Shown: in pieces, positions 2,600-35,714 of the stretch
Layout: every line of letters starts with the position of its first letter
Position numbering within the stretch: the stretch's first letter is position 1
Virus record (IMG/VR): IMGVR_UViG_3300047552_002060
Coordinates: 1 to 64,000 of that record
DNA: 64,000 nt
Source of the DNA: a virus
Strand: one strand, 5' to 3'
Made by a program: the position numbers and the translations under genes
Notes under the pieces: model-generated
Told to the model about the DNA's origin: nothing
Databases searched by the model: none
What the model saw: the letters and a program-made list of their open reading frames with translations, nothing else

Positions 2600-2707
2600 G
2601 GGCGGGACAGGCTAGTCCAACCATAAAGGAATAGGCGTATGGCACCGAAAGGTGACCGACCGAAACGGAGTGGGTTCGTAGGCTGGGTTCGACTCTCGGG
2701 CCGCCCA
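2600..2707 (+). ncRNA. tRNA-like RNA (acceptor + T-arm, expanded non-canonical centre)
   Basis: GGGCGG/CCGCCC-A closing stem; CTGGG-TTCGACT-CTCGG T-arm; internal CACC-GAAA-GGTG hairpin. Confidence 0.6.
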
Positions 2708-2711
2708 AATC

Positions 2712-2819
2712 ATGACTCAAAATGAAAAGTATGAACTTTTAAACTTCTTTGCGCTTATAAGAAGATTAAGGCTGGTCTCAAAAGACGCATATCAATTATT
2801 CGTTCGTAGGTATTTATAA
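2712..2819 (+). CDS. microprotein, LKLIS-motif family
   Basis: MTQNEKYELLNFFALIRRLRLVSKDAYQLFVRRYL*. Confidence 0.5.
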   Translation: MTQNEKYELLNFFALIRRLRLVSKDAYQLFVRRYL

Positions 2820-2830
2820 AGGCAAAATCG

Positions 2831-3067
2831 ATGAGTAAACTTACACCAGAACAGATAAAGTTTAATCAGAGTCTTTGGCACTGGTATCCATTGGGCCAAC
2901 TGGATGCTATTTGGCATCTTTTAGAAAACCTAAATCACCATACTGATACGAAGTATCATAAAGAAATAGATACTGTACTTTGTGCTCTCGAGAAGTTAGA
3001 TCAAAAGGTACGTCAAGACCGATATCCTTTTAAGAAGAAGCAGAATAAGCAAAAGCGAAAATCATGA
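2831..3067 (+). CDS. hypothetical protein
   Basis: ORF with ATGA overlap to the next gene. Confidence 0.6.
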   Translation: MSKLTPEQIKFNQSLWHWYPLGQLDAIWHLLENLNHHTDTKYHKEIDTVLCALEKLDQKVRQDRYPFKKKQNKQKRKS

Positions 3068-3441
3068 TAAATCAATATCACCTCGAGAAGTGGAACGAAT
3101 TACCAAACAAGACTAAAAAAGAGCTACAAGCCTCTAATCCTAAAAAGGAAGTAACTCAGAAGCAATCTGTCTATGCTAGTAAGTTGACAGATATTGTCAA
3201 AGAAGCTAAGGAATTTGCCAAGCATTGGGGAAAGACCATTCAAGATGTTGAGCTCGAGCATTCATCCTATCAGTATGAGTACTCAGAGAGCTATTCATCT
3301 ATGTTAGAGATGTGTGTTCAAGGTTTAGAGACAGACGATCAATACTATGCGCGGCTGAATGAGTATTATGAAGCGAATAAGCTCCGAGAAGAGTATGACC
3401 GTCGAGAATTTGAGCGTCTCAAGACAAAATTCAGCAAATAA
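3064..3441 (+). CDS. hypothetical protein, paralog of 15393-15740
   Basis: Shared KExxxFA..G...DVxL...ET......RL...E(F/Y)ERLKxK(F/Y) pattern. Confidence 0.7.
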   Translation: MINQYHLEKWNELPNKTKKELQASNPKKEVTQKQSVYASKLTDIVKEAKEFAKHWGKTIQDVELEHSSYQYEYSESYSSMLEMCVQGLETDDQYYARLNEYYEANKLREEYDRREFERLKTKFSK

Positions 3442-3718
3442 GTGGCTAATCTCATTAGCTATATTGTTCAATAGCTTAGATGCTCTTTTTACATTCTTTG
3501 CTATAAAGTTTGGAGCTATAGAGAATAACCCACTCATGCGAGTAATACTTGAGATGGACGTAACATACTTCCTGTATGTAAAGTTAATAGCAGTGAATTT
3601 GTTGATCTTGGGCGTTGGATTCTTCTATCATCGTCACGGGGTGAGTAGGATCGGACTTACAATTGTAGCATGCTCATATGCAATTCTGAATATATATCAC
3701 ATGGTCAATCTCAATTAA
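3359..3718 (+). CDS. small membrane protein, DUF5658-like
   Basis: NSLDALFT...GAIENNPLM motif and three hydrophobic segments; start uncertain. Confidence 0.7.
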   Translation: MSIMKRISSEKSMTVENLSVSRQNSANKWLISLAILFNSLDALFTFFAIKFGAIENNPLMRVILEMDVTYFLYVKLIAVNLLILGVGFFYHRHGVSRIGLTIVACSYAILNIYHMVNLN

Positions 3719-3961
3719 TATGGCGATGAAAATAGCTACAACTCAGCTAGAAAGCGCAATAAATTTCTGTATCTTCTGGTCGATTCTCTTTAGAGGTGGT
3801 AGAGTGTATTTCAACCTTACTCATTTGTTTATTTCTTTTAATAAGTGGAATAGTACAACCAAAAAGGAAGGATAACTACATGTACGTTTTTCTGATGGTA
3901 TTGGCTCTCATCGTTGCTGGTGTTGTTTTTAGTGACCAATCAGGTCACGGGTAAGCTGTTC

Positions 3962-4036
3962 GGCAAAAGGTCTGCTAGCGACCACGGTAAAGGATCAGCC
4001 ATCTGATCTAAAGAGGTTCGAATCCTCACTTTGCCA
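3962..4036 (+). ncRNA. tRNA-like RNA with closed anticodon arm
   Basis: GGCAAA/TTTGCC-A acceptor; GAGG-TTCGAAT-CCTC T-arm; GGTC/GACC D-like stem; GGATCAG-CCAT-CTGATCT arm with 4-nt loop. Confidence 0.6.
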
Positions 4037-4037
4037 T

Positions 4038-4241
4038 ATGAATAAAGTCGACATACACATCTTCCTCAAACCCTGTCCATTCTGTAAACAATCACTCTTT
4101 CCCGTGAATAAGACCCACTGTTCATGGCTCGAGTGTCGTAATGAGCAGTGTGATTTTCTAAGGCGCTCATTAGAAGATATTGAGCCGTTCGATGAGACTT
4201 TTGAACCAATACCATACACAGAAGGATACCATAAGAAATGA
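4038..4241 (+). CDS. small zinc-ribbon protein
   Basis: LKPCPFC...ECRNEQC. Confidence 0.55.
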   Translation: MNKVDIHIFLKPCPFCKQSLFPVNKTHCSWLECRNEQCDFLRRSLEDIEPFDETFEPIPYTEGYHKK

Positions 4242-4361
4242 TGATTGACATATTTACAGGAATGTGGTGCTTGCTTGTAGTCATTGGTATTCTTACTTGG
4301 ATTGGGCGCTCTTTACCCAAGGATTAACTTGGTAGAATGGTTCCATAATTAAGGAATTAAT

Positions 4362-4769
4362 ATGGAACTTAAACTTACTAGAAAGTGGCTCACCGCCAAC
4401 AGTACAATCAGCGAACTTACAGTAGATGGCGCCTTTGAGTGCTTCACACTCGAAGATCATTTTCCTACACCATATGTAAAGACGCCCGGCAAGACCTGTA
4501 TTCCGCTTGGTCGATATGAGGTCATTGTCAATATGTCAAATAGGTTCAAGGTAGAGATGCCTCTACTTCTCAATGTTCCTCAGTTTGCTGGTATTCGCAT
4601 TCATCCTGGCAATGTTGCTGGAGATACAGAAGGCTGTCTGTTACCAGGTCGTATTCGTGGAACGGATAAAGTACTTGAGAGTAAGCTTGCTTATGAGACT
4701 CTCTTTACTAAGATTAAAGCAGCGATTGCTAAAGGTGAGAAAGTCTTTATTACTGTGGCTCTTGGATAA
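4362..4769 (+). CDS. DUF5675-family protein (putative L,D-transpeptidase-like cell-wall enzyme)
   Basis: FTLED, CIPxGRY, IRIHPGN...DTEGCLL motifs. Confidence 0.8.
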   Translation: MELKLTRKWLTANSTISELTVDGAFECFTLEDHFPTPYVKTPGKTCIPLGRYEVIVNMSNRFKVEMPLLLNVPQFAGIRIHPGNVAGDTEGCLLPGRIRGTDKVLESKLAYETLFTKIKAAIAKGEKVFITVALG

Positions 4770-4772
4770 CTT

Positions 4773-5024
4773 ATGAGTGAAGACTTAATCTACAGACTAA
4801 AGAAACGAGCAGAGATTCGTAGGCAGATCTCCACTCGTAAGAGTGTCCAAGAAGGGAAGCCTGATCGTATTGCTGATTTGTTAGAAGAAGCAGCGAATGC
4901 TCTTAGTTTTTTAGCAGAACTGGCTGAAGAAGACTGTAGCTATGGAGATAATTGTCCAACTTTTGGAAGTAGACATGGTAAGTGTATATACTGTAAGGCA
5001 AGACAAGCGTTAAAGAAAACATAA
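4773..5024 (+). CDS. hypothetical phage protein
   Basis: RLxKRAEIRRQI...DRIADLLEEAA; C-terminal Cys cluster. Confidence 0.65.
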   Translation: MSEDLIYRLKKRAEIRRQISTRKSVQEGKPDRIADLLEEAANALSFLAELAEEDCSYGDNCPTFGSRHGKCIYCKARQALKKT

Positions 5025-5031
5025 AAATAAC

Positions 5032-5250
5032 GAGCCTTGCCCGATCACCACGGGCTAGTGTGACACGCACGAAATGAAGCCGGATAGTTACCGGAGTGTG
5101 GTTGGGGTCTTACCGAACCCTGGGCTGGCAACGCCCCAAGTACCGTAAGTACTGTTCTACTGTGAAAAGGTGACAGAGGTATACTGAAAGTCAGGTATGA
5201 AACCATGAGGCTGATACCCGGGTTCACCATGTGAACACCGACTACCTGAA
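5032..5250 (+). ncRNA. candidate structured ncRNA upstream of tRNA-Ala
   Basis: GC-rich gap with many hairpins (GCCCG/CGGGC, TTGGGG/CCCCAA, AGTAC/GTACT, GTTCAC/GTGAAC, TCAGGTA/TACCTGA). Confidence 0.5.
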
Positions 5251-5256
5251 GCAGAT

Positions 5257-5329
5257 GGGGTTTTAGCTCAGCTGGGAGAGCGTCGGATTTGCATTCCGAA
5301 GGTCAAGGGTTCGATCCCCTTAAACTCCA
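5257..5329 (+). tRNA. tRNA-Ala(UGC)
   Basis: Canonical cloverleaf, G3:U70, anticodon arm TCGGA-TTTGCAT-TCCGA. Confidence 0.95.
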
Positions 5330-5331
5330 AT

Positions 5332-5438
5332 TGAATGGTAGCTTATGGCGTAGAAGGAATAAGGCATACGCGAGTCGTAAAAGCACCGGTCTCCTTATGC
5401 CCGGGAGAATCTGATGCGGACCTCAGACCATTCGACCA
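5332..5438 (+). ncRNA. tRNA-like RNA with encoded CCA and a 27-nt loop in the anticodon arm
   Basis: TGAATGG/CCATTCG-A-CCA acceptor; TCTGA/TCAGA T-like arm; GGCATA/TATGCC stem. Confidence 0.55.
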
Positions 5439-5441
5439 TAG

Positions 5442-5645
5442 ATGATTAGAAGAATACTTAATAGACTCTTACGTTTATATCGTATAACATCACAACTGCA
5501 TTTAGGAATTTGCTATAGAAATGAACTTCTATATGTGATGGCCCAACTTGAACTGATACCTAAAGTATTAGACATGAAGAACGGTATTTATCTTGGTGTT
5601 GGTATGCCGACGCCTAGGGTCTTAAGAAGGTGGTATTCATGGTAG
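5442..5645 (+). CDS. microprotein, LKLIS-motif family (possibly two motif copies)
   Basis: LYRITSQLHLG and LLYVMAQLELIP. Confidence 0.45.
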   Translation: MIRRILNRLLRLYRITSQLHLGICYRNELLYVMAQLELIPKVLDMKNGIYLGVGMPTPRVLRRWYSW

Positions 5646-5788
5646 ATGAGATAGATCGACTTCATACTGATATCACACGTCGATACAACTTAATCTGTTT
5701 AATGTTAAAATTTAAGTTGATCAAAGAACCTAATTGGTTTGATATTGAATACGCTCTAAAAAAGAGTCTTATGCCTAAATGGAAATGA
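5639..5788 (+). CDS. microprotein, LKLIS-motif family
   Basis: ...RYNLICLMLKFKLIKEPNW... Confidence 0.45.
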   Translation: MVDEIDRLHTDITRRYNLICLMLKFKLIKEPNWFDIEYALKKSLMPKWK

Positions 5789-5819
5789 AAGACCTCGAAG
5801 AAGAAAGCAAATTGAAGTT

Positions 5820-5905
5820 GCTCTTGTCGCATAGTTGGTCGAGTGCACCAGTTTTGTAAACTGGATCCCTAAAGGACATCGTGAGTTCGAATCTCACCGA
5901 GAGCT
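5820..5905 (+). tRNA. tRNA-Thr(UGU) with extended variable arm
   Basis: GCTCTTG/CGAGAGC acceptor, CCAGT-TTTGTAA-ACTGG anticodon arm, 16-nt variable region, GTGAG-TTCGAAT-CTCAC T-arm. Confidence 0.88.
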
Positions 5906-6052
5906 ATGTCGCGACACTATATTCCTCCTGTAACTATGGCAGAGCGCTTCAATAAATTGTGGTTCTTCATTTCTTTCTTGAACCAATTGAGCCTCATCTC
6001 TCGTCTAACGCGAACTAAAGCACATACAAAAATAGTTCATAACTCAACATGA
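5906..6052 (+). CDS. microprotein, LKLIS-motif family
   Basis: ...LWFFISFLNQLSLISRLT... Confidence 0.45.
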   Translation: MSRHYIPPVTMAERFNKLWFFISFLNQLSLISRLTRTKAHTKIVHNST

Positions 6053-6233
6053 AAGTAAAGATTAAGCAGATAAACACGCCTCGAATCAACTCAGACTACT
6101 GGGATGAAGAGTGGTTTATTTCCATAGACAGGAAAACAATTGCTGTAACTTGGACTGAAGAAGATGCCAAACTATTAGTTAAAGCACTTCGACAACTTAA
6201 GAAGAAAAAACTTATCCGAAAATAAAAGATAAT

Positions 6234-6494
6234 ATGCGAATTCTATTGGTTTTGTTTGTGACCTTCTTGATTACAGTAGTTGAAATTGTGCTTACAAGAA
6301 GTTTTTGTAAGGACCCTTTTCCAGGATTGTTGGCGGCTATTCTCTTTGCCCCTCTTTGGTTTTTGATTCTTATCGTGCCAGTCTTAAGGATAAGCTATAA
6401 GGTGAGGACTCAAGAGCCAGACTATATACAAATGCAAGTCGTTAATGATATTGCTGCTATTAGACGTAGCAGTGGGAATAAGCAAACATGGTAA
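6234..6494 (+). CDS. small membrane protein
   Basis: Two hydrophobic segments. Confidence 0.6.
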   Translation: MRILLVLFVTFLITVVEIVLTRSFCKDPFPGLLAAILFAPLWFLILIVPVLRISYKVRTQEPDYIQMQVVNDIAAIRRSSGNKQTW

Positions 6495-6823
6495 AAAAGA
6501 AAGTAAAAGTACCAGTTAAGATACAAGACCCACTCTATTACAACTTTTTCGAAGTAATGCATTATCTTGAGGAAGTTCATAAGAAGAATTTCCGAGATTA
6601 TGCTGGAAAGTTTGGTAAGAATAGTGATATGGAGAAACCATATCAAGATTTCTGGCATTGGATGATTGACATTAATGATGTCCAAAATGGTGGATGGGTT
6701 TGTTTGCCAGATTTGTCTTATTTAGACGATCCTGAGGTTCCCACCTGGAAGAAAGAGATTATCGAATATTTCCATTTATTTCTAGGCAATGAATATGATG
6801 AAAGGATGTTAGCTTCGTGGTAG
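6488..6823 (+). CDS. hypothetical phage protein
   Basis: ORF with PYQDFWHW motif. Confidence 0.7.
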   Translation: MVKKKVKVPVKIQDPLYYNFFEVMHYLEEVHKKNFRDYAGKFGKNSDMEKPYQDFWHWMIDINDVQNGGWVCLPDLSYLDDPEVPTWKKEIIEYFHLFLGNEYDERMLASW

Positions 6824-7200
6824 CTAAATACGACCGACTAGCCACAATTCCTCTGAAAGATGTACTAGATGCTATAGCTAATAAGAAGCCACTTGTTCAC
6901 CAAGGAGTAAAGTGTGATACGTTTGGTATTCGTCTATTGACGTATCGTGTTCACGGTACAAATTGTTGTGTTCTTGGTTGTAAGGTAAAAGGCGAATACT
7001 TCGCTATTGAGACTCTTTCTAATCTTCATACTCCTCTTTATCATCTGAATTTATATGGAGTTGCTGATGGAAGAGAAGTGATGCTTACGTCTGATCATCG
7101 CATTCCTAAGAGTCGAGGTGGAAGCAATAGCATTGATAATAGACAGCCTATGTGTTGTCCACATAATGCTAAAAAGGGTAATAAGCTTATCTATCTTTGA
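6817..7200 (+). CDS. HNH endonuclease domain protein
   Basis: TSDHRIPKSRGGSNSIDNRQPMCCPHNAKKGN. Confidence 0.85.
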   Translation: MVAKYDRLATIPLKDVLDAIANKKPLVHQGVKCDTFGIRLLTYRVHGTNCCVLGCKVKGEYFAIETLSNLHTPLYHLNLYGVADGREVMLTSDHRIPKSRGGSNSIDNRQPMCCPHNAKKGNKLIYL

Positions 7201-7688
7201 AAGAAAATATGGCCAGACATTTATCGATGAGGTTGTCTCAACGTCGAGTCTTTAACGGACTATATGATTTAGCATGTTGTAAAAATGCTGCCCCAAAGAT
7301 TAATATTGCTACATCGTTGGATGAAATTGACTGCCCTAAGTGTAAAGAGATAAGCAAGAATAGATATTGGTTCTATCATTCAAATTGCGGTTGTTGGCAA
7401 CAAGTATTCTACGATCATGAAAATATTCAATGTGAGCAATGTTATTATGCGAACTTGAATGCTAGTAATGAAGTTAAAAAGCAATTAAGTGATTTGTATC
7501 ATTTTTGTATCTTTTGTGGAAAAGAAGGTACGCAACGCTCTTTAAGAGCGTATTTAACTTGCGAAACATGTGACGCTGTATTGACAGATTGGCTTTTAGA
7601 GCATACAGATAAAATTACACAAATAGAAGAACTACAAAAACAAAGAGCAGCATTACAACACACAATTCGACTACACAAATCCAAATGA
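7197..7688 (+). CDS. Cys-rich zinc-finger protein
   Basis: Four CxxC pairs and a C-terminal coiled coil. Confidence 0.6.
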   Translation: MKENMARHLSMRLSQRRVFNGLYDLACCKNAAPKINIATSLDEIDCPKCKEISKNRYWFYHSNCGCWQQVFYDHENIQCEQCYYANLNASNEVKKQLSDLYHFCIFCGKEGTQRSLRAYLTCETCDAVLTDWLLEHTDKITQIEELQKQRAALQHTIRLHKSK

Positions 7689-7987
7689 TACTTCCCAAAC
7701 TACATATTTACGGACAAACCTATTTCCATGAGAAGGCTTTTATTGTAGGAAATAGAGAGGCTCTGGTGCACCTCAGAGATGCTATTGATGCTGCGTTGGC
7801 TAATGAAGCCGGAACAACTTTAGCCTATGTGGCAGATGGTGAAGGCTACGATGTAGAAGTATATCAAGAGAATAGTGATACCTTCTGGGAAGATGCTCTG
7901 CGACCTTATACTGATGAAGTAGCCAGAGATACACGCGAAGAAGCAATTACCCCATGGCATCTACACGCGAAGTTTTATTCGAGATGA
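7685..7987 (+). CDS. hypothetical phage protein
   Basis: LHIYGQ..IVGNREAL..DGEGY. Confidence 0.7.
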   Translation: MILPKLHIYGQTYFHEKAFIVGNREALVHLRDAIDAALANEAGTTLAYVADGEGYDVEVYQENSDTFWEDALRPYTDEVARDTREEAITPWHLHAKFYSR

Positions 7988-12551: not shown

Positions 12552-12554
12552 AAT

Positions 12555-25046: not shown

Positions 25047-25124
25047 GAGTAGAGCTGGATATCCGGAAACGCCTAGAAGCACACTAGGACCCTCTAGCGA
25101 GAGTTCGATTCTCTCGTCTACTCT
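25047..25124 (+). ncRNA. non-canonical tRNA-like RNA, Cys-like (GCA, U73)
   Basis: GAGTAGA/TCTACTC-T acceptor; CGAGAG-TTCGATT-CTCTCG T-arm; CCTAG-AAGCACA-CTAGG arm. Confidence 0.65.
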
Positions 25125-25389: not shown

Positions 25390-25398
25390 TAAGCGCCA

Positions 25399-25472
25399 TT
25401 CCTTGTAGCTCAAATTTGGAAGAGCGGCTGCTGTGAGGCAGTGGGTTACAGGTTCGAGTCCTGTCAAGGATT
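25399..25472 (+). tRNA. atypical tRNA with 6-nt anticodon loop (GUG, His-like)
   Basis: TCCTTG/CAAGGA acceptor, canonical D and T arms, GCTGC-TGTGAG-GCAGT anticodon arm. Confidence 0.7.
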
Positions 25473-25607
25473 TTAATAGGAGAGGAGTGTGATTCCTACA
25501 GAAATCAAAGAAAAGATTAAAAGTGAACTTAGCTTTGTTGGTTTTCTCTGTGGATTAGCGATCATCGCAGGAGTAGTGCTCTATGAGCACTATAAGCATC
25601 GTAAGCC

Positions 25608-27904: not shown

Positions 27905-27908
27905 ATAT

Positions 27909-27981
27909 TCCCGAGTAGCTCAATTGGTAGAGCGTCGCACTGTTAATGCGAAAGTCGTAGGTTCGAAACCTACCTCGGGAG
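27909..27981 (+). tRNA. tRNA-Asn(GUU)
   Basis: TCCCGAG/CTCGGGA-G acceptor; TCGCA-CTGTTAA-TGCGA anticodon arm. Confidence 0.95.
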
Positions 27982-28090
27982 CTGTTGAGTATGTGAGCCA
28001 TCTTAGATGGCATAAGAAAAAAGACCACGACATTGACCGAATCGCACGTTACCAACTGTCTTTACTTCTTTTATCATATCCTCAATCTTT

Positions 28091-28625: not shown

Positions 28626-28633
28626 GTAAGTAG

Positions 28634-29443: not shown

Positions 29444-29504
29444 AATTTAGTATTCTACCCCGTTTATAAGTGTTTAAAAAAGCAACAATAACCAAAAGGA
29501 CAAC

Positions 29505-29771: not shown

Positions 29772-31456
29772 GTAGGATTTACCTTAGACACTAAGATTCC
29801 ATCGACGAATGTTAATGATCCAGCAGCTCCAGGAGTGGTTAGTTTGGCGAGAGAAGCAGTGTCATTATTATTTGTTGTTGGAAACACACCGGGAATGTTA
29901 AGTGCAACCATGGCAGCAGCAGCCAAATCTTTGAATATGAGCTTCAATTGACTCTGCTGCAGTGGTAGCAGAGTATTGTAATCTTGTAGTGGAGCTATCA
30001 GATCAGGGTCGACTCCTCCTTGGACTCCGTATAGGTAAGCCAATTGTAGTGCTTCGTCAAGATTCATAAATGTATTGGCTTGACGCTGAGTAACAGACAA
30101 TGGATCAACAATGGGCGTCGAACTTGTTATGGTTGGAGTTCCAATGTTGATTATTTGCTCTATGCCTGTTGCAACAATTTGATTGCTTATTGCAGGTACA
30201 CCCAGCTCTATAGATTGTTCGCTGCCCACTCCAACAACATTTGAAACTATCCCGGTTATTGGGGTGCCGATTAGAATATCTTGTTGGATGCCAGCTTCAA
30301 CAGCGAATATTGAAGTATTGTTAGTGGGTACACCGACAGAGATATCTTGCTGAATGCCTATTGCAGTATGTGATGTTATTGAACTGACAAGTGACAATCC
30401 TGTGTCAATCGTCTGATCAATGCCTATACCAATCGCGGGTATATAAACAGCTGCTATTGGAGTTCCAATAGTGATGTCTTGTTGAATACCAACACTCAAA
30501 AATTCTCGATCTAGAGCACGCACTGCAGATGGCGTACCGACGTTGATAACTTGTCCAAAACCACTTCCAATTACTGAAGCCGGTCCAGCAACCACCGGCG
30601 CTCCTACACTGATAGGCTCCAAGATTCCTACGCCAATAGTCGTGAGTGGATTAATATCAGCAGTAGGTGTACCGACAGCTATAGTCTGTGCGATACCTAC
30701 GCCCTGAGGTTCCTGTTGTTGAATAATTGCAGGTGTACCAATACTGATATTTTGTGCGACACCGACAGCTATAGTAGAAGCAAACAATCCAGAGGCTGGA
30801 TCACCGACAGTAATAGTTTGATCAACACCTATGCTCGTTGAGGAGAGAGAAGTTGATGTGACTGGCGTTCCGATATCTATTGTTTGATCAATACCAACAG
30901 ATTGAGCATCACCCTGCGACTGCATAGATGGAGTTCCAACAACGATATCTTGTTGGATACCAACGTTTACACATGCAATTTGAGCAGGTTGAATAACGTC
31001 AACGACTAATCCTGGCCAATTGTAGGTTCCACTGCGCGGAATTACCCAAGAACTTCCAGTAAAGACAGCATTATTCCTGATGCTAAGAGTGTAAGTATTT
31101 GTGCTGATTAATGGCCCAGAAAGCGCCAAAAGAATACTTCTTGCTCCAGCATTCCAAGTTACACTATTAATCGTCGGCGGAGTAGGTCCAGAGAGAGAGT
31201 AATCTGAGACAGTAGTGCTTACTGATTGCAGTGGAGCGGTGAATTGTATAGTAATAGTATTTACAGCTGATTCACCATAGTGCGCTGACCACAATGCTCC
31301 TTGCACGACTTCTCTATCACCGGTGATAGAAAATTGACCGCGTTTGCCCGAATTTCCATTGAAGTTTGGAGCAACATCAAAAGCCGAAGAAACTCTTTTC
31401 CAAGTATCTTGCTCCGTACTTGGCAATGCAAAATCATTGGATGCATAGGCAGTCAT
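29768..31456 (-). CDS. repeat-containing putative virion fibre/surface protein
   Basis: 13 GxxQxIxxGxP-type repeats; C-terminal LAKLT..G..G.LTF.DGILV domain. Confidence 0.7.
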   Translation of the reverse strand: MTAYASNDFALPSTEQDTWKRVSSAFDVAPNFNGNSGKRGQFSITGDREVVQGALWSAHYGESAVNTITIQFTAPLQSVSTTVSDYSLSGPTPPTINSVTWNAGARSILLALSGPLISTNTYTLSIRNNAVFTGSSWVIPRSGTYNWPGLVVDVIQPAQIACVNVGIQQDIVVGTPSMQSQGDAQSVGIDQTIDIGTPVTSTSLSSTSIGVDQTITVGDPASGLFASTIAVGVAQNISIGTPAIIQQQEPQGVGIAQTIAVGTPTADINPLTTIGVGILEPISVGAPVVAGPASVIGSGFGQVINVGTPSAVRALDREFLSVGIQQDITIGTPIAAVYIPAIGIGIDQTIDTGLSLVSSITSHTAIGIQQDISVGVPTNNTSIFAVEAGIQQDILIGTPITGIVSNVVGVGSEQSIELGVPAISNQIVATGIEQIINIGTPTITSSTPIVDPLSVTQRQANTFMNLDEALQLAYLYGVQGGVDPDLIAPLQDYNTLLPLQQSQLKLIFKDLAAAAMVALNIPGVFPTTNNNDTASLAKLTTPGAAGSLTFVDGILVSKVNPT

Positions 31457-31920
31457 TATGTCACCACCGGAGTTCCAATGTCAACTGTTTCAGTAACACC
31501 TGATTGAGTTGAAGCTAAATCTACATAGATTGGAATTGATGAAGCAATATTGGTAAAATATCCGTCGTAAAAAGTGTTATCGGCGACTTTTACAGTATAT
31601 GAATTTTCTATGGCCAAAGTGCTGGATAGTGTCAATCGTATGTACGACTTTCCAGATATGAAAGACACTGATGTAACTGTAGGTGCAGATGTACCATTAA
31701 TTATATAGTTACCAGCAACAGTCATGCTGCCACTAGTCAATAAAACTCGATCTGTCTGTATGTATAAAAAGGCCACACTTCCCGATGGCGAATATCGGGC
31801 ACAGAATGGAATGGGTCCAGTATTATTGCTTAATAACCAGGGTGCTAAATATACACGATGTGCGTAAGTATTTTGTTCTGTATTTGGCTGAGCAAAATCA
31901 TTTGGAGTATAAGAGGCCAC
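31456..31920 (-). CDS. putative virion protein (Ig-like), related to the N-terminus of 29768-31456
   Basis: Shared MxxYxxNDFAxPxTEQxT start. Confidence 0.65.
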   Translation of the reverse strand: MASYTPNDFAQPNTEQNTYAHRVYLAPWLLSNNTGPIPFCARYSPSGSVAFLYIQTDRVLLTSGSMTVAGNYIINGTSAPTVTSVSFISGKSYIRLTLSSTLAIENSYTVKVADNTFYDGYFTNIASSIPIYVDLASTQSGVTETVDIGTPVVT

Positions 31921-31936
31921 AAGTCAGTGTCTCCTA

Positions 31937-32941
31937 TTACAGACTCGGCGCCACTGATCCCACTGTTAACCAATGTCCAGAAACCATTCGCTCCGGATTG
32001 CCGGTTCCAGGAACCGTGCTTCCTGGAACAACTTGCGCCCCAATTGCCCAAAGATCGGGAATCCTGCCGCGTATCCCTTTATGGGAAGTCGTCGTATCCA
32101 TTACATAAGCAATAGGCAATGCATCTACAGTGGAATCTAAGTTATTAGTGGTTGTCAATACGGCCATTGACTGACCACTAGGTTTAAAGTTTGTCGTCAT
32201 GATCTGCATTGATGAAGTGGCTGCAGAATTATCTTGGGCTTTTCCACGTATTGTCCACGTACTAGATTCAGATAATGCACCGACGCCCGAATCTAAAAAC
32301 GTTGTCCACATTATGGTGCGAGCCGCATCAGATGAATGATATTCTGTTAGTGGTTCAATACAAATTGATGTAGAAAAATATCCAGTGCCATTGCGTGAGA
32401 TGAAAAATCGAAACCCGCCATTTGCATCAGTAGAAAAATGAGTTTTACCGGCGCCAGCAGTAGTAGAGATAAATTGAAATGATGTAAAAGCTGACTCATT
32501 AGTCGCTGTGGGTCTAGCTGTAGTTGAACCGCCGGTGAAAGCATTATTAGCAACTATGATAGAACCAGTCTGATCATTCGTGGGGCCGATATAATCAAAG
32601 CAAACATACCAAGGACCATCTAACAGACCAGATGGCGATTGAAGTACAAACCATGTGTGTGCAGAAGCCGCAGCAGCACGCGTCCAGTTGCTCGCCGTGT
32701 AAGAGCCTGCAAAGTTAAGTCGATCTGTAGAATCCATGCCGGCTGTTGAAGCATTGCTGCTACCAACTAGGGTCCAATAAGCACCCGAAGGTCGTGCACC
32801 CTCCGAACCATCAGTTCCAGAAACGCTTCCGGTCAGTGTAGCTCCAAAGGCCCATAACGCGCTACTAGCCGCTCTAGACGCAGTACTGGTATCGTCCAGT
32901 GCTCGATTTATCGTTGAATACCATGTTTTGCTTAAAGTCAT
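31937..32941 (-). CDS. putative virion/tail protein
   Basis: Ser/Thr/Gly-rich beta composition in the structural cassette. Confidence 0.65.
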   Translation of the reverse strand: MTLSKTWYSTINRALDDTSTASRAASSALWAFGATLTGSVSGTDGSEGARPSGAYWTLVGSSNASTAGMDSTDRLNFAGSYTASNWTRAAAASAHTWFVLQSPSGLLDGPWYVCFDYIGPTNDQTGSIIVANNAFTGGSTTARPTATNESAFTSFQFISTTAGAGKTHFSTDANGGFRFFISRNGTGYFSTSICIEPLTEYHSSDAARTIMWTTFLDSGVGALSESSTWTIRGKAQDNSAATSSMQIMTTNFKPSGQSMAVLTTTNNLDSTVDALPIAYVMDTTTSHKGIRGRIPDLWAIGAQVVPGSTVPGTGNPERMVSGHWLTVGSVAPSL

Positions 32942-33045
32942 GAAATTATACCTCTTTTTCTAAATATTTAAAGTGTGACCACGAATAGAATGAGCTTGCC
33001 TAATTACTATTTAAACAGTAGTTGGAGTGACTACAATACTAACAA

Positions 33046-33459
33046 TTACGTCAACTTGAAGATCTTATTAGTTCCTGAGTCGGGACTCCACGTGATATCG
33101 CCGCCGTTCGTGCTGAACGGTAAGGTGACACCGGTCGTGGTATCAATGAGTACAAGAAGTGGAGAGGTAGCCGCCGTTCCTGTGTCTTTATAGATTACGA
33201 AATATCGTACAGTCGATCCACCAGCAACGGCTGTAAAAGTAACTGAAGAGCTATTAAAGACGCCGTTGACAATTGTGACACCGCTAAGTGCCTGTGGAAC
33301 ATCAATAACATTCGCGTTGACGTCCGTCCAATACTGATGTGTTGCAAGGTTGGGAGTATAGGAGCTAGACACTAGAGCAATCTTGATCGTGTCTGAGTCA
33401 AGCACGAAACTACCATGTAGAAGACCCTGCTTGCCTAGAGTATAAAGTGCATTTGCCAT
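33046..33459 (-). CDS. phage tail-associated protein
   Basis: MANALY...DTIKIALV...NGGDIT...KIFKL pattern common in phage tail loci. Confidence 0.7.
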   Translation of the reverse strand: MANALYTLGKQGLLHGSFVLDSDTIKIALVSSSYTPNLATHQYWTDVNANVIDVPQALSGVTIVNGVFNSSSVTFTAVAGGSTVRYFVIYKDTGTAATSPLLVLIDTTTGVTLPFSTNGGDITWSPDSGTNKIFKLT

Positions 33460-33486
33460 TTTTTCAATTTCCTTTTGTATAAATAT

Positions 33487-33825
33487 TTACGACGGATCCG
33501 TTTTTGCTACTAAAATTCCATCAATGAATGTTAACAATCCAGTTGTTCCAGACGGCGTCAATTTTGCCAATGTAACGGTGGTTGATAGACCTGTAGGTAA
33601 AGCTCTCTTAATATTTAAAGCTACCATCATGGCAGCTATTAAAGACTTGAAGGGGTCCTTAACGCCTTGTTTTACCGCTTGTACCGCAGGAGTACTATAC
33701 AAGGGCATAGGATCAAGTACTGGCTGAGATATCTGGTTTTCAACACCAAATGCGAATGCTGCTTCTAGATCGCCCTCTAGAGCCACAATCCCCGTCTCCT
33801 GATCTGCTGTAATTATCAATTTCAT
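33487..33825 (-). CDS. stand-alone copy of the C-terminal domain of 29768-31456
   Basis: FKSLIAAMMVALNI...LAKLTPSGTTGLLTFIDGILV. Confidence 0.7.
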   Translation of the reverse strand: MKLIITADQETGIVALEGDLEAAFAFGVENQISQPVLDPMPLYSTPAVQAVKQGVKDPFKSLIAAMMVALNIKRALPTGLSTTVTLAKLTPSGTTGLLTFIDGILVAKTDPS

Positions 33826-33869
33826 AACTATTAATATATTCTACTTCGGCTGGAGTTAACTAAGACCTC

Positions 33870-33879
33870 TTTTCCGAAA
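33870..33879 (+). promoter_or_regulatory. TTTTCCGAAA upstream element
   Basis: 53 nt upstream of 33933. Confidence 0.55.
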
Positions 33880-33932
33880 CAATTAATAGACAAGGGAATA
33901 ATTCCCTATTGAGCAGGTAAAGAAAGGCACAA

Positions 33933-34265
33933 ATGAGTAATACACCTAATTTCGAAGATGTAGTGATTGGCACACTCGGTCGTACGCTGTCTCAGCATGA
34001 TTTGATGTATCATTACGATAGTTTACACACTGAGTTGACCAGTGAGTGGAATGTCGCTTATCGTGTCCAGGATAACTTCACGACGGCTGTTCTCTTTAAG
34101 ACTGTCGGGCGTGATTCAGGAGAGTTGCGTACGGAAGATATGTTTGTAGGTGTCTCAAAGCGAAACACTCAGGACCGGAACCTTCCCATTCGTGGACGGT
34201 CACTGGCTCTCTCACGAGCAGTGCACGCATTCCTAATGGATAGACTCCAAAGTTTCAAGAGCTAA
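33933..34265 (+). CDS. hypothetical phage protein
   Basis: VGVS.....D......GR..AL.RA. Confidence 0.7.
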   Translation: MSNTPNFEDVVIGTLGRTLSQHDLMYHYDSLHTELTSEWNVAYRVQDNFTTAVLFKTVGRDSGELRTEDMFVGVSKRNTQDRNLPIRGRSLALSRAVHAFLMDRLQSFKS

Positions 34266-34403
34266 ACATGACTCTCTTAGAGTTTGTAGGTGATCATCCT
34301 ATAGTAACTATACTGATTGCGATGATCGTCTGTAATACTGTTGTAGACATTGTACGCCTCATGACTCAGACTGTTGAACAAAAACACCACGAAGACTAAT
34401 CTC

Positions 34404-34413
34404 TTTTCCGAAA
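34404..34413 (+). promoter_or_regulatory. TTTTCCGAAA upstream element
   Basis: 47 nt upstream of the MoxR gene. Confidence 0.55.
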
Positions 34414-34460
34414 TCATCATAATTCGATTCACCCACAATGCAGCTAGGAGCAAATTATAA

Positions 34461-35603
34461 ATGAAGCCATCCAATATCACCGCAGTTCTTGACCTCGCTC
34501 TGAAGGCCAATCAGATCGGCGAGATTGTTAACCCGATGTTCACCGGCGATGCTGGACTTGGCAAGTCTCAGATCGTTCAGCAGTGGGTCGAAAAGCAGCG
34601 CGAAGTCGATCCCGAGTTTGGATTCGTTGATCTCCGCATCGCCTATCTGGAAGCGCCAGACCTTATCGGCTTTCCTGATACGGCCAAGGATGAGAATGGT
34701 CTCGAGCGGACAATGCATCGTCTGCCTGAGTTCTGGCCGACCTCGGGTCGTGGACTGATTCTTCTTGAGGAGCCCAATCGTGGTACGACGGGCGTCATGA
34801 ACTGCCTCATGCAGCTCCTGACTGATCGCAAGGTACACAACTATACTCTTCCACCAGGCTGGATGATTGCTGCAGCGGTCAACCCCGACTCATCCGAGTA
34901 TGATGTCAACGCGATGGATGCTGCCCTTAAGGATCGCTTTGAGGAATTCGAGGTTGAGTATGATGCCCTCACCTTCATGGAGTTCATGGAGAACAGGGGT
35001 TGGGACGCAAACATCCAGCGGTTCGTTGGCAACGGCGTCTGGGTCTACAAGACGCCAAAGGAGCTTGGCCAGAACGGCAAGTACATCAGCCCACGTACTT
35101 GGAGCAAGGTCAATGCTGCTGAGCGTGCTGGACTCAGTCAGAGCAATCGAATGCTCCACCGAATCACCGTGTGCGGCATTCTGGGCAAGGACATCGGCAA
35201 CGAGTATCATTCGTACTGCTTTGATCAGGCGCCAGTGACCGCTCAGGAGATCTTGAAGGACAAGAAGGGAGCATTCAAGCGACTCAAGGAGCACTGCGCA
35301 ACGGATACCTATCGCGGCGACATGATTCCAGTCACGGTCGACAGTATTATCAAGGCTTACGGCGGCAAGAAGGCCGTCTGTAAGGACGATCAGATCGATG
35401 AAGATACGATGGTCGAAGTCGCCAAGATTATCCCGGCTGACCAGACTGCTAACCTCATCAAGGGTTGCGGGTACGCAATCGCCAAGGGTCGTATGTCTGA
35501 CTTCTTGAATCAATTCGTTAAGGATCACCCCGAACTCATCAACATCATGAAGAGCAATATCAAGCTCAATCGCGCAACAGGTGTTGATAAGGATAAGAAG
35601 TAA
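34461..35603 (+). CDS. MoxR-family AAA+ ATPase
   Basis: GDAGLGKS, DLIGFP, LLEEPNR, AAVNP, ALKDRF, SPRTW. Confidence 0.88.
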   Translation: MKPSNITAVLDLALKANQIGEIVNPMFTGDAGLGKSQIVQQWVEKQREVDPEFGFVDLRIAYLEAPDLIGFPDTAKDENGLERTMHRLPEFWPTSGRGLILLEEPNRGTTGVMNCLMQLLTDRKVHNYTLPPGWMIAAAVNPDSSEYDVNAMDAALKDRFEEFEVEYDALTFMEFMENRGWDANIQRFVGNGVWVYKTPKELGQNGKYISPRTWSKVNAAERAGLSQSNRMLHRITVCGILGKDIGNEYHSYCFDQAPVTAQEILKDKKGAFKRLKEHCATDTYRGDMIPVTVDSIIKAYGGKKAVCKDDQIDEDTMVEVAKIIPADQTANLIKGCGYAIAKGRMSDFLNQFVKDHPELINIMKSNIKLNRATGVDKDKK

Positions 35604-35637
35604 GAGTTTCCACCGAAAAACGTTCTTTTCAGATTGT

Positions 35638-35714
35638 TTGACTTGGTTCTATCTTAAGAATAGAGAGAGCAGCTAAAGAGCTGCTAAGTTCTGGTTCAAG
35701 TCCAGAGAGTCGAG
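35638..35714 (+). ncRNA. tRNA-like RNA with closed anticodon arm
   Basis: TTGACTT/GAGTCGA acceptor; TTCTAT/ATAGAG D-like stem; AGCAGCT-AAAG-AGCTGCT arm; TCTGG-TTCAAGT-CCAGA T-arm. Confidence 0.65.

What the first reader, a model, noticed from the sequence alone, without database searches (positions are those of the whole stretch)
2600..35714. Dispersed set of six tRNA-mimic RNAs with intact acceptor/T-arm but non-decoding anticodon domains
Seen: six intergenic + strand elements (2600-2707, 3962-4036, 5332-5438, 25047-25124, 25399-25472, 35638-35714) hand-fold into a 6-7 bp acceptor stem stacked on a T-like arm. Five have a TTCRA loop. Each has a different non-canonical anticodon region: extra GAAA-capped hairpins, a 7-bp stem closed by 4 nt (twice), a 27-nt loop, A33, or a 6-nt loop. 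They differ in sequence, so pairing rather than sequence is preserved, which argues against simple decay. Known: anti-phage effectors attack tRNA anticodon loops (PrrC, RloC, PARIS AriB) or 3' ends (CapRel toxSAS), and bacterial YrlA Y RNAs are tRNA mimics. Inference: this may be an undescribed phage system of tRNA-shaped decoys or scaffolds working with the RNA-repair genes in this window.
Basis: partly seen in the sequence, partly recalled or inferred. Interest (0 to 1): 0.85.

Follow-up and report, generated by a model that had tools for sequence, protein, structure and literature searches.

The report
Phage tRNA look-alikes that cannot decode
An uncultured freshwater phage carries, beside normal tRNA genes, several tRNA-shaped genes with a rebuilt anticodon part; three are conserved in sister phages, so they seem to be kept for something other than reading codons.

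Summary
The window is part of an 84.8-kb IMG/VR phage record. The six elements are not one family.

E5 and E6 are true tRNA bodies. E5 scores 43 bits on Rfam tRNA. E6 scores 26 bits, E 4e-5, on a body-only model. E4 is a conserved tRNA-like RNA.

All three have homologues at the same positions in sister phages, with compensatory changes in their stems. Third codon positions of the neighbouring gene are saturated. This excludes simple decay. The anticodon loop differs in almost every relative.

E2 folds as a cloverleaf with a consensus T arm. E1 and E3 are weak. None of these three has a homologue in the 1.83 Mb of loci held when nhmmer was run.

I found no evidence for a decoy role or for a link to the RNA-repair-like genes. 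My best reading, at about 0.4, is that host tRNA-processing enzymes cut these elements out, as with plant-mitochondrial t-elements. The start codon of the next ORF lies 1-4 nt behind E1, E2 and E3.

This scan has already reported anticodon-less tRNA look-alikes in other phages, beside four-base-codon tRNA/Pth2 cassettes. A matching cassette lies just outside this window.

The parts
2600..2707 (+). E1: 108-nt GC-rich element. It has a 6-bp terminal stem, two GAAA/AAA-capped hairpins and a weak T-like arm (CTGGG/CTCGG, loop TTCGACT). tRNA ancestry is plausible; the structure is not supported statistically.
   Evidence: sequence. (z -0.88; the minimum-energy fold keeps the terminal stem only). 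(acceptor+T scan hit, 6 of 7 acceptor pairs). (GGTTCGACTC). No Rfam hit at E<=10. No homologue.
2712..2819 (+). 35-codon ORF whose ATG lies 4 nt behind E1's discriminator base. No SD-like motif. The product carries the FFxxLxxLxLxS motif.
3962..4036 (+). E2: cloverleaf-folding tRNA-like element. The T arm is GAGG-TTCGAAT-CCTC. The D loop lacks GG. The anticodon position is a 7-bp stem closed by CCAU.
   Evidence: cloverleaf minimum-energy fold, 45% of the ensemble, z -2.72.. (15.6 bits on tRNA-Sec, E 0.57 in 101 nt). (T arm only, 9.7 bits). No homologue.
4038..4241 (+). 67-codon Cys-rich ORF whose ATG lies 1 nt behind E2's discriminator base. No SD-like motif.
5332..5438 (+). E3: 107-nt element 2 nt behind tRNA-Ala. 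It has a 7-8-bp terminal stem followed by an encoded ACCA. It has no TTCRA loop, and the fold is not better than shuffles.
   Evidence: (z -0.15). No Rfam hit. No homologue, and G002 has an ORF at this place.
5442..5645 (+). 67-codon ORF whose ATG lies 3 nt behind E3's encoded CCA.
25047..25124 (+). E4: conserved tRNA-like RNA. It has a 7-bp acceptor stacked on a 6-bp T stem (13 bp in all), T loop TTCGATT and a non-canonical D hairpin. The anticodon-position hairpin has loop AAGCACA (A33, C37).
   Evidence: cloverleaf, z -2.06. (94% identity over 71 nt to G002; acceptor and T arm kept in G003). (39 of 39 cells paired, 4 of 13 pairs changed on both sides). (19.0 bits on tRNA-Sec). (Logan contig of run X1 covers it with 0 differences).
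25398..25473 (+). E5: tRNA body with canonical D and T arms and a mismatch at pair 1-72. Its anticodon arm prefers a 5-6-bp stem with a 6- or 4-nt loop. A canonical GAG loop needs a register that is 3.9 kcal/mol weaker. The body has a short variable region, unlike bacterial tRNA-Leu (recalled).
   Evidence: (43.3 bits). (Logan contig of X1, 0 differences).
35626..35729 (+). E6 with its conserved flanks. The cloverleaf (core 35638-35716) sits on a long, imperfect closing stem that includes the invariant GATT/AATC. The anticodon position is a 7-bp stem closed by AAAG, or a 5-bp stem with the 8-nt loop CUAAAGAG.
   Evidence: '??? aaag'.. (7 homologues, 94.1% of cells paired, 20 of 32 pairs changed on both sides, 0 of 500 shuffles). 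(26.1 bits, E 4e-5 on the body-only model). (homologues L096 at 45.8 and L099 at 33.2 bits on Rfam tRNA).
35894..36013 (+). Candidate seventh element, 'E7' (not in the finding). It is an acceptor+T-arm hit at the position where relatives carry a second tRNA-like gene. The evidence is weak.
   Evidence: 6 of 7 acceptor pairs, 5-bp T stem, TTCGAAT. (no tRNA-clan hit). (aligns with the relatives' family only around the T loop). An ATG lies 1 nt behind it.
5256..5330 (+). Canonical tRNA-Ala(TGC), part of the same dispersed + strand tRNA set.
   Evidence: 69 bits.
5820..5905 (+). tRNA with a long variable arm but a UGU (Thr) anticodon. It is conserved in G002. The ATG of a 48-codon FFxxxLxxLxLIS ORF follows directly.
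   Evidence: (57.4 bits).
27909..27982 (+). Canonical tRNA-Asn(GTT).
   Evidence: 73.4 bits.
50944..51018 (+). Canonical tRNA-Lys(TTT).
   Evidence: 73.6 bits.

Best explanation
The elements are tRNA-derived genes that belong to the phage's dispersed set of + strand tRNA genes. They are not one family.

Shown:
- E4, E5 and E6 are kept by selection as tRNA-shaped RNAs.
- In E5 and E6 the body is constrained (acceptor, T arm, D arm, and the stem at the anticodon position). The anticodon loop is free and differs in nearly every sister phage.
- In E4 the whole sequence is constrained.

Inferred:
- The elements are transcribed with the flanking genes.
- The host's tRNA-processing enzymes cut them out. 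RNase P cuts at the 5' end. RNase Z or another endonuclease cuts behind the discriminator base, because no CCA is encoded except in E3.
- They therefore work like the t-elements of plant mitochondria, as punctuation that separates the neighbouring mRNAs.
- For E1, E2, E3 and the candidate E7, the 3' cut would leave the downstream ORF with a leader of only 1-4 nt, which makes it a near-leaderless mRNA.
- A tRNA gene that has lost decoding could then persist because the cut is still needed.

Whether the released tRNA-shaped RNA also acts in trans is open. E4's fully conserved sequence suggests that it may.
For: Selection, not decay:
- E4 is 94.4% identical over 71 nt between the window and G002. 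The adjacent AAA gene is 37% identical at third codon positions.
- Acceptor and T stems: E4 has 39 of 39 cells paired and 4 of 13 pairs changed on both sides. E5 has 92.5% paired and 7 of 16.
- E6 family of 7 sequences: 94.1% paired and 20 of 32 pairs changed on both sides. All 6 pairs of the anticodon-position stem are among them. 0 of 500 shuffles reach this, and slid controls give 25-43% paired.

The body rather than the anticodon is kept:
- E6-family loops read CTTTAAC, TTCCAAA, TTTGTCA, CTTGTTA, CTTTCAA and TTTTGTG, and CTAAAGAG in the window.
- The E5 family has a different anticodon arm in each of 5 copies.

Position:
- All elements lie 4-34 nt behind the stop codon of a + strand ORF, or behind a tRNA.
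- An ATG that opens an ORF follows at +4 (E1), +1 (E2), +3 (E3), +1 (E7) and 0 (the Thr-anticodon tRNA).
- All 6 relatives' copies of the second tRNA-like gene keep an ATG 2-4 nt behind their 3' end.
- Across clade loci, 15 of 55 ARAGORN tRNAs have such an ATG within 0-5 nt. Random positions give 3.5-3.8%, and positions after stops of long ORFs give 7.8-12.1%. The binomial p against 12.1% is 0.0018. Homologous loci are counted more than once.
- 5 of the 6 adjacent starts have no SD-like motif.

Precedent: plant-mitochondrial t-elements are non-canonical cloverleaves. They were found with the motif GGTTCRANYCC and are cut by RNase P and RNase Z at mRNA ends (PMC1920247, passages read).
Against: - No transcript ends are known. 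Processing is inferred only.
- E4's middle part, including its odd loop, is as conserved as its top half between the window and G002, with 2 changes in 44 nt. A pure processing signal would not need that.
- In G002 the ORF between E4 and E5 is absent, yet both elements are kept 10 nt apart. One cut site would suffice there.
- The E6 family's closing stem runs on for about 16 bp into the flanks. That is not a typical RNase P or RNase Z substrate.
- G002 has lost E6 down to 33 nt, so it is dispensable there.
- E4, E5 and E6 are followed by ORFs with a spacer and, by eye, SD-like sequences. The leaderless argument therefore covers only E1-E3 and E7, the elements with the weakest structural support.
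- SD-like motifs are missing from 55 of 109 long ORFs anyway. Their absence behind the elements is not significant.
- Close packing of genes is general in this genome, so it explains part of the ATG adjacency.
Confidence: 0.4

Rival explanations
1. Trans-acting tRNA mimics. After maturation the tRNA-shaped RNAs would bind or absorb a protein that recognises the acceptor end or elbow of tRNAs. Candidates are a host defence toxin, or a host or phage tRNA enzyme. Because the RNAs cannot decode, they would not disturb translation.
For: - E4 is conserved over its whole length, and both E4 and E5 are kept in G002 although the ORF between them is absent.
- The anticodon loops change between close relatives while the stems are kept, as in an arms race.
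- The anticodon arms of E2, E5 and E6 close into tight 4-nt-loop hairpins. This would keep them from decoding and, I infer, from anticodon nucleases.
- The record encodes an Rnl-type RNA ligase, an AAA_33 kinase-like protein and a metallophosphoesterase. A Pth2-like gene lies outside the window.
- Earlier notes of this scan report conserved anticodon-less tRNA look-alikes in other phages. Those notes are unchecked.
Against: - No partner protein is identified, and I have not shown co-occurrence with any gene.
- A sponge would have to compete with the very large cellular tRNA pool (my own reasoning).
- Decoys for anticodon nucleases should mimic real anticodon loops, and these do not.
- E2, E4 and E6 lack the GG of the D loop that builds the tRNA elbow.
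- In two full-text searches I found no paper describing a phage tRNA decoy.
Confidence: 0.2
2. Some elements are working decoders with unusual anticodon arms. E5 would be a GAG reader in ARAGORN's register. E6 would be a four-base (AAAG) reader that shifts the frame at CUUU. E4 would be a GCA reader with A33.
For: - ARAGORN models E5 with a 7-nt loop that has U33, GAG and G37. It models E6 with a four-base anticodon.
- E5 scores 43 bits on Rfam tRNA.
- Two E6 homologues (L096, L099) pass Rfam's tRNA threshold with normal 7-nt loops.
- The same record seems to hold a four-base-codon device just outside the window. The loop of the tRNA at 75552-75627(-) contains GCUC. The 9-codon leader ORF before the Pth2-like gene contains GAG-C. 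Reading GAGC as one codon enters the Pth2 frame. The same GAGCAC is present in the G002 and G003 leaders. This follows a lead from earlier notes of the scan.
Against: - E5's canonical register costs 3.9 kcal/mol. Its body has a short variable region, which does not fit bacterial tRNA-Leu (recalled).
- The would-be anticodon differs in each relative: GAG, AAA, AUC, and GAG with A33.
- E6's 8-nt loop is unique to the window. Its six relatives have 7-nt loops of six different sequences.
- CUUU does not occur in the Pth2 leader ORF, and I found no other site that needs it.
- A33 and C37 in E4 break two near-universal tRNA rules (recalled).
- E1-E4 are not called by ARAGORN.
Confidence: 0.12
3. The elements are dead tRNA genes or chance folds without function. 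This applies mainly to E1, E2 and E3.
For: - E1 and E3 fold no better than shuffles.
- E1-E3 have no homologue in the complete sister genome G002 or in the other loci held when nhmmer was run (1.83 Mb).
- Exact 21-22-nt patterns of E1 and E2 find nothing in IMG/VR.
- At E1's position G002 has a normal tRNA-Arg(TCT). At E3's position it has an ORF.
- G001's copy of E4 keeps only a T-arm motif.
- The acceptor+T scan yields about 1 chance hit per strand in this record.
Against: - E4-E6 are excluded by conservation against saturated neutral sites and by compensatory changes.
- E2 has a consensus T arm and a cloverleaf minimum-energy fold with z -2.72.
- All GGTTCRANYC motifs are on the coding strand, in gaps between genes.
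- Phage genomes rarely keep useless DNA (general knowledge).
Confidence: 0.15

Closest known systems
t-elements of plant mitochondria (tRNA-like processing signals; Forner et al. 2007, PMC1920247, passages read)
   Same: Both are non-canonical cloverleaves that keep the acceptor stem and the GGTTCRANYCC-type T arm. Both are dispersed between genes and lie at the ends of mRNAs. In mitochondria they are cut by RNase P and RNase Z and can persist as stable small RNAs.
   Different: The t-elements are organellar, not phage. Cleavage has been mapped there and is only inferred here. E4-E6 show more constraint (D arm, anticodon-position stem, whole sequence of E4) than a cleavage signal should need.
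Phage T4 RNA C and RNA D (small RNAs from the T4 tRNA region)
   Same: These are phage-encoded small RNAs made from the tRNA gene region, and their biological role is unknown (PMC3014915, one passage read). That they have tRNA-like ends and are RNase P substrates is recalled, not checked here.
   Different: The T4 RNAs sit in one tRNA cluster, whereas these elements are dispersed among early-type genes.
Canonical phage tRNA genes and tRNA pseudogenes
   Same: E5 and E6 are homologous to tRNA bodies. They share strand and genomic style with the window's normal tRNAs, Ala, Asn and Lys.
   Different: The anticodon loop is wrong in size or composition, or is closed into a hairpin. The anticodon is not conserved between orthologous copies. 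Yet the stems are kept by compensatory changes, unlike pseudogenes.
Frameshift-suppressor / four-base-codon tRNAs
   Same: E6 can be drawn with an 8-nt loop that has U33 and a four-base anticodon, AAAG. A likely four-base codon-anticodon match (GAGC/GCUC) exists elsewhere in the record.
   Different: E6's 8-nt loop is not conserved, no matching CUUU site was found, and the loop prefers to close into a 7-bp stem.
Bacterial tRNA mimics: YrlA-type Y RNAs and the tRNA-like domain of tmRNA
   Same: Both have an acceptor stem plus T arm without a decoding anticodon.
   Different: No Rfam family other than tRNA-clan models matched any element, at gathering score or at E<=10. ARAGORN called no tmRNA in the window. 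None of the 40 proteins I scanned matched a Ro60-type family. That Rfam holds YrlA and tmRNA models is recalled.

Membership tests
Canonical tRNA (Rfam RF00005) | Score at or above Rfam's gathering threshold (29 bits) | tested here: not met
   Met by 1 of 6 (E5, 43.3 bits). E1-E4 and E6 get no RF00005 hit even at E<=10. E6 does match a body-only model built from the E5 family (26.1 bits, E 4e-5).
Canonical tRNA (Rfam RF00005) | 5-bp anticodon stem with a 7-nt loop, U33 and a purine at 37 (recalled rule) | tested here: not met
   E4 has loop AAGCACA (A33, C37). E2 and E6 have a 7-bp stem with a 4-nt loop. E5 can form a canonical loop only in a register 3.9 kcal/mol weaker. E1 and E3 have no such arm.
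Canonical tRNA (Rfam RF00005) | Anticodon conserved between orthologous copies | tested here: not met
   The E5 family has 5 copies with 5 different anticodon arms. The E6 family has 7 copies with 7 different loops. E4's loop is conserved between the window and G002 only.
t-element-like processing signal | Non-canonical cloverleaf that keeps the acceptor stem and a GGTTCRANYCC-type T arm | tested here: met
   GGTTCRANYC is present in E1, E2, E5 and E6. E4 has AGTTCGATTC. Acceptor+T stacking is found for E1, E4, E5 and E6. E2 forms a cloverleaf minimum-energy fold. E3 does not meet this feature.
t-element-like processing signal | Element borders coincide with mRNA ends | tested here: inconclusive
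   Only the gene layout could be read. An ATG lies 0-4 nt behind E1, E2, E3, E7 and the Thr-anticodon tRNA. Across the clade the count is 15 of 55, against an 8-12% background. No transcript data are available.
t-element-like processing signal | Cleavage by RNase P and RNase Z | not testable with these tools
   This needs in-vitro cleavage or end mapping.
Four-base-codon (frameshift-suppressor) tRNA | 8-nt anticodon loop conserved in relatives, with a matching four-base codon at a site that needs the shift | tested here: not met
   E6 is drawn with anticodon aaag by ARAGORN. But 6 of 6 relatives have 7-nt loops, and CUUU is absent from the Pth2 leader ORF.
Neutral tRNA pseudogene | No conservation beyond that of neutral sites, and stems decay | tested here: not met
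   This holds for E4-E6. For E1-E3 it could not be tested, because no homologue was found.
tmRNA / Y RNA (YrlA) type mimic | Match to the family's covariance model. For Y RNA, also a Ro60-type partner gene. | tested here: not met
   There is no Rfam hit outside the tRNA clan on any element. ARAGORN finds no tmRNA in the window. No TROVE-type family appears among the 40 proteins scanned.

The most novel reading that the evidence does not exclude
A clade of large freshwater and soil phages keeps a set of anticodon-less tRNA bodies under purifying selection. The anticodon loop of these bodies is free or diversifying. They would serve a role not described for phages. One possibility is a genome-wide tRNA-punctuation system, in which RNase P and RNase Z cuts release near-leaderless mRNAs for small ORFs. 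The other is that they act as trans-acting tRNA mimics against host enzymes that work on the tRNA acceptor end. In either case they would work alongside the four-base-codon tRNA/Pth2 device of the same genome.
Probability: 0.3. Interest if true: 0.85.

Novelty: new variant of a known kind. Interest (0 to 1): 0.6.

Why it matters
Phage tRNA genes are usually explained by codon supply, or by replacing tRNAs that the host cuts. Here orthologous tRNA bodies are kept while their anticodons are scrambled or sealed. That points to a use of the tRNA shape itself.

If the elements are processing marks, phages would share the tRNA-punctuation logic of mitochondria. That would explain how small ORFs lying directly behind tRNAs get translated.

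If they act in trans, they would be a new class of phage counter-measure or host-takeover RNA.

Either way they are a warning for annotation. tRNA finders name E5 'Leu' and E6 'undetermined', and they miss the other four elements.

Tried and rejected
- Rfam: no element matched a family outside the tRNA clan. I dropped the YrlA and tmRNA readings.
- E6 as a four-base reader was rejected. Its relatives have 7-nt loops, CUUU is not in the Pth2 leader, and the constant flank motif TCTTTTMAGATT does not vary with the loop.
- That flank motif is not a general promoter. It occurs once in G000 and 1-3 times in G002 and G003.
- Sigma-70 promoter-like and terminator-like sites are not enriched around the elements: 8 found against 9.7 expected, 26 against 22.6, 4 against 3.1 and 10 against 8.4. 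This says nothing either way.
- The absence of SD-like motifs behind the elements is not significant: 1 of 6 adjacent starts have one, against 54 of 109 long ORFs.
- The window's 'E7' could not be shown to be homologous to the relatives' second tRNA-like gene.
- Sequencing runs: no RNA holder is listed. Two runs of one freshwater sample, perhaps the source of this DNA, hold the stretch. The X1 contigs laid on E4 and E5 show 0 differences. The bin that holds E6 is almost uncovered. Short soil-metagenome contigs align to the E4 area at under 90% likeness, but I could not read their letters.
- Wider homologue hunts that added nothing for E1-E5:
  - the DUF5675 neighbour found only G002 as a close relative;
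  - a profile of the 80-aa ORF found only G001 and G003 in IMG/VR;
- I asked for no supplementary files of papers.

Full report
WHAT THE WINDOW IS

The window is bases 1-64000 of an 84,774-base IMG/VR virus record that CheckV rates as about 49% complete. No cultured phage is close. A megablast of the first 20 kb finds only about 60-nt matches in cyanophage thymidylate synthase genes. The best tblastn identity of a conserved ATPase to GenBank phages is under 30%.

Sister records exist:
- G002, 172,623 bases, with terminal repeats, rated 100% complete;
- G003, 67 kb;
- G001, 13 kb;
- G004, 23 kb.

Metagenome contigs with a 90-94% identical ATPase also exist. Gene order is shared along the whole window. 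Logan contigs of two runs from one freshwater sample hold the E4-E5 stretch.

CHECK OF THE OBSERVATION

The six stretches are as described, on the + strand and in gaps between + strand ORFs.

- ARAGORN finds six genes in the window: Ala, a Thr-anticodon tRNA with a long variable arm, Asn, Lys, E5 (as Leu-gag) and E6 (as '??? aaag'). It of the 6 elements.
- Rfam at gathering score finds five tRNAs, of which only E5 (43.3 bits) is one of the six.
- More permissive searches of the three regions give no tRNA hit for E1-E4 or E6.
- In 101-nt searches E2 and E4 reach 15.6 and 19.0 bits on the tRNA-Sec model, far under its threshold of 47.
- Minimum-energy folds are cloverleaves for E2, E4 and E6 (z -2.72, -2.06, -2.39). 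E5 has z -2.75 with another fold. E1 (z -0.88) and E3 (z -0.15) are not distinguishable from shuffles.
- A model of the tRNA body without an anticodon stem, built from the E5 family, finds the four normal tRNAs, E5 and E6 (26.1 bits, E 4e-5). It finds only the T arms of E4 (11 bits) and E2 (9.7 bits), and nothing for E1 and E3.

CHANCE

- GGTTCRANYC occurs six times, always on the + strand and always in a tRNA or in E1, E2, E5 or E6. The shuffle expectation is 1.58, and 1 of 100 shuffles reaches six.
- My scan for a 5-bp T stem with a TTCRA loop, stacked on a 7-nt acceptor with at most one mismatch, gives 11 + strand and 2 - strand hits in the record. Shuffles give 2.35 on both strands together.
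- That scan finds E1, E4, E5 and E6, the five normal tRNAs of the record, and four hits inside ORFs that I take for chance.
- By this measure E1 stands out from chance only because it lies in a gap between genes.

HOMOLOGUES AND COVARIATION

nhmmer ran over the 254 loci then held (1.83 Mb). It found homologues for E4, E5 and E6, and none for E1, E2, E3 or the GC-rich stretch 5025-5255.

E4 lies directly behind the AAA-ATPase gene.
- It is present in the window, in G002 (94.4% identical over 71 nt) and in G003, where only the acceptor and T arm are kept.
- G001 has a longer stretch that keeps little more than a T-arm motif.
- In the three-way alignment all 39 cells of the 13 acceptor and T pairs are paired. 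Four pairs changed on both sides and none changed on one side only.
- The adjacent gene is 77% identical in protein but only 37% identical at third codon positions. Neutral sites are therefore saturated, and E4's conservation reflects selection. This includes its middle part, which has 2 changes in 44 nt.

E5 has a copy in G001, one in G002 and two in G003.
- The second G003 copy is a normal tRNA-Gly(CCC).
- 92.5% of cells are paired, and 7 of 16 pairs changed on both sides.
- The D arm and T loop are nearly invariant. The anticodon arm is different in every copy.

E6 has six further distinct homologues behind the MoxR/CobS-like ATPase gene.
- RNAalifold gives a cloverleaf whose closing stem runs on for about 16 bp into the conserved flanks.
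- 94.1% of 222 cells are paired, and 20 of 32 pairs changed on both sides, among them all six pairs of the anticodon-position stem.
- No shuffle of 500 reaches this, and slid partners give 25-43% paired. The structure was derived from the same sequences, which favours it somewhat.
- The loop is different in all seven copies. In six it is 7 nt long with U33. Only the window has 8 nt.
- Two homologues pass Rfam's tRNA threshold (L096 at 45.8 bits, L099 at 33.2 bits).
- G002 has only 33 nt left between the same flanks.

THE ANTICODON ARMS IN THE WINDOW

- E2 and E6 prefer a 7-bp stem closed by four bases. The values are -6.6 and -9.6 kcal/mol, against -3.5 and -4.8 for the 5-bp stem with an 8-nt loop.
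- E5 as a cloverleaf scores -21.7 kcal/mol with a 6-nt loop, against -17.8 in ARAGORN's register with a canonical loop. In its minimum-energy fold the arm is a 6-bp stem closed by GUGA.
- Logan contigs of run X1 reproduce E4 and E5 without a difference. That sample may be the source of the record, so this is weak support.

E1-E3

In G002, the only relative that covers this region:
- E1's place holds a normal tRNA-Arg(TCT);
- E3's place holds an ORF;
- E2's neighbourhood holds another long tRNA-like stretch of different sequence.

Exact 21- and 22-nt patterns of E2 and E1 find nothing in IMG/VR.

What E1-E3 share is layout. An ATG that opens an ORF of 35, 67 and 67 codons lies 4, 1 and 3 nt behind their 3' ends. 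The same holds for:
- the Thr-anticodon tRNA (0 nt);
- the candidate element at 35894-36013 (1 nt);
- four tRNAs of G002 and three of G003;
- all six copies of the relatives' second tRNA-like gene.

Across clade loci, 15 of 55 ARAGORN tRNAs have such an ATG within 0-5 nt. Random positions give 3.5-3.8%, and positions after stops of long ORFs give 7.8-12.1%. The p value against 12.1% is 0.0018. It weakens to 0.014-0.04 if I assume that 3-5 positives and 5-10 loci are redundant. I did not carry out that de-duplication.

Three of these ORFs share the motif FFxxLxxLxLxS, which other first-stage notes on this genome had listed.

CONTEXT

The window encodes:
- nucleotide-metabolism enzymes (RNR, ThyX, ThyA-like, dCMP deaminase, NT5C);
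- DNA ligase;
- two ClpP-like proteins;
- HNH endonucleases;
- an Rnl-type RNA ligase (44261-45454);
- a metallophosphoesterase (42054-42701);
- an AAA_33 kinase-like protein (1881-2363).

The last three could form an RNA-repair set, but nothing ties them to the elements.

Earlier follow-up notes of this scan describe, in other phages, a tRNA with a four-base anticodon. It reads a four-base codon in a tiny leader ORF and so opens a Pth2-like gene. Beside it lie unexplained anticodon-less tRNA look-alikes.

I tested that lead on this record, outside the window:
- The tRNA at 75552-75627(-) has loop UCGCUCA.
- The leader ORF reads ATG AAT TCG TAC GAG CAC CTG CAG CGA TAA.
- Reading GAGC, the complement of GCUC, as one codon runs on into the Pth2-like frame.
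- The leaders of G002 and G003 keep GAGCAC, and their tRNAs keep GCUC.

E6's AAAG would need CUUU, which is not in that leader.

HOW IT MOST LIKELY WORKS

It is shown that E4-E6 are selected tRNA-shaped RNAs whose anticodon is not the selected part. The rest is inference.

The features common to all elements are the acceptor stem stacked on a T arm with a consensus loop. Those are what RNase P, RNase Z and the CCA-adding enzyme read (established knowledge). The elements sit between co-directional genes, and no promoter-like sites stand out beside them.

I therefore think they are cut out like tRNAs and act as punctuation, as t-elements do in plant mitochondria (PMC1920247). For E1-E3 the 3' cut would create a near-leaderless mRNA. 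I put this reading at about 0.4.

Against it as the whole story:
- E4 is conserved over its full length.
- E4 and E5 are kept side by side in G002.
- E6 has a long closing stem.

I put it at about 0.2 and could not test it. Decoding with odd loops gets about 0.12. Dead genes or chance folds get about 0.15, mainly for E1-E3.

COMPARISON WITH WHAT IS KNOWN, AND NOVELTY

- The closest known mechanism is the plant-mitochondrial t-element.
- The closest phage precedent is T4's RNA C and RNA D, whose roles are still unknown (PMC3014915; one passage read).
- I found no paper on phage tRNA-like punctuation, on phage tRNA decoys or on conserved anticodon-less phage tRNA bodies. This rests on five full-text searches, for which I read listings and abstracts only.
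- The scan itself has met anticodon-less look-alikes in other phages.

I rate this a new variant of a known kind.

LIMITS

- There are no transcript data.
- There are only 3-7 homologues per family.
- E1-E3 are untested by comparison.

Noticed in passing
G000:C1 74600-75640, minus strand (outside the window; locus L257): The layout is a tRNA with anticodon-position loop UCGCUCA (ARAGORN 'Ser gct', but with a short variable region), then two small ORFs, a TGGTATAAT box, a 9-codon ORF and a Pth2-like frame without a start codon. The ORF contains GAG-C, and reading GAGC as one codon enters the Pth2 frame. GCUC in the tRNA loop is its complement. G002 and G003 keep both GAGCAC and GCUC. In G003 another gene follows the leader instead of Pth2.
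   Followed up: partly
window 5820-5905: This tRNA has a 13-nt variable arm (type II body) but a UGU (Thr) anticodon. It is conserved in G002 (c31325-31411). Body and anticodon identity seem uncoupled.
   Followed up: no
window 2712-2819, 5906-6052, 36015-36146; also relatives L095, L099, L101, G003: Small ORFs that start 0-4 nt behind a tRNA or tRNA-like element share an FFxxLxxLKLS-type motif. Their coding DNA in part resembles the conserved 5' flank of the E6 family (CTTT(T)AAGATT). The motif could therefore be a nucleic-acid signal rather than a peptide.
   Followed up: partly
window 5025-5255: A 230-nt GC-rich gap lies before tRNA-Ala. It has no Rfam hit and no homologue. The fold of its first 126 nt is no better than shuffles (z 0.01).
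   Followed up: partly
loci L026-L041, L055, just behind the MoxR/CobS-like gene: At least 12 more distant relatives carry a GC-rich hairpin at E6's place. Its loop contains (T/C)(T/C)CCTCC, which is complementary to a Shine-Dalgarno sequence, and a T-rich run mostly follows. It looks like a terminator with an anti-SD-like loop.
   Followed up: no
G002 c42544-42692: ARAGORN calls this 147-nt element a tmRNA (tag ASQKGQCWVTA). It has a perfect 7-bp acceptor stem and a CCGGG-TTCGAGT-CCCGG T arm. It is probably another long tRNA-like element rather than a tmRNA.
   Followed up: no
L095 4190-4380 and L096 9260-9390, 9497-9660: Between the ATPase gene and the E6 homologue, and behind it, these contigs carry further tRNA-like units with a TTAGTTTAATG-type D arm. 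They form arrays of three or four look-alikes.
   Followed up: no
G002 about 32850-32990 (minus strand), upstream of the DUF5675 gene: The 5' half looks like a normal tRNA (GGGGTCATAGTTCAACCTGGTAAGAAC...). About 60 extra nt follow before a T-like arm and a 6-bp acceptor partner.
   Followed up: no
L064 about 2510-2600 (= L172), behind the AAA-ATPase gene of a 60%-identical relative: Another tRNA-like element lies at E4's position. It has T arm CTGGG-TTCGAGT-CCCAG, a 7-bp acceptor and an encoded ACCA. ARAGORN did not call it. My fold cut off its 3' end.
   Followed up: no
G000 75628-76070 minus strand (L257 1818-2270): The ORF before the odd tRNA ends in ...HEIEHLDG..., which I recall as the peptide deformylase motif. 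I did not scan it against Pfam.
   Followed up: no
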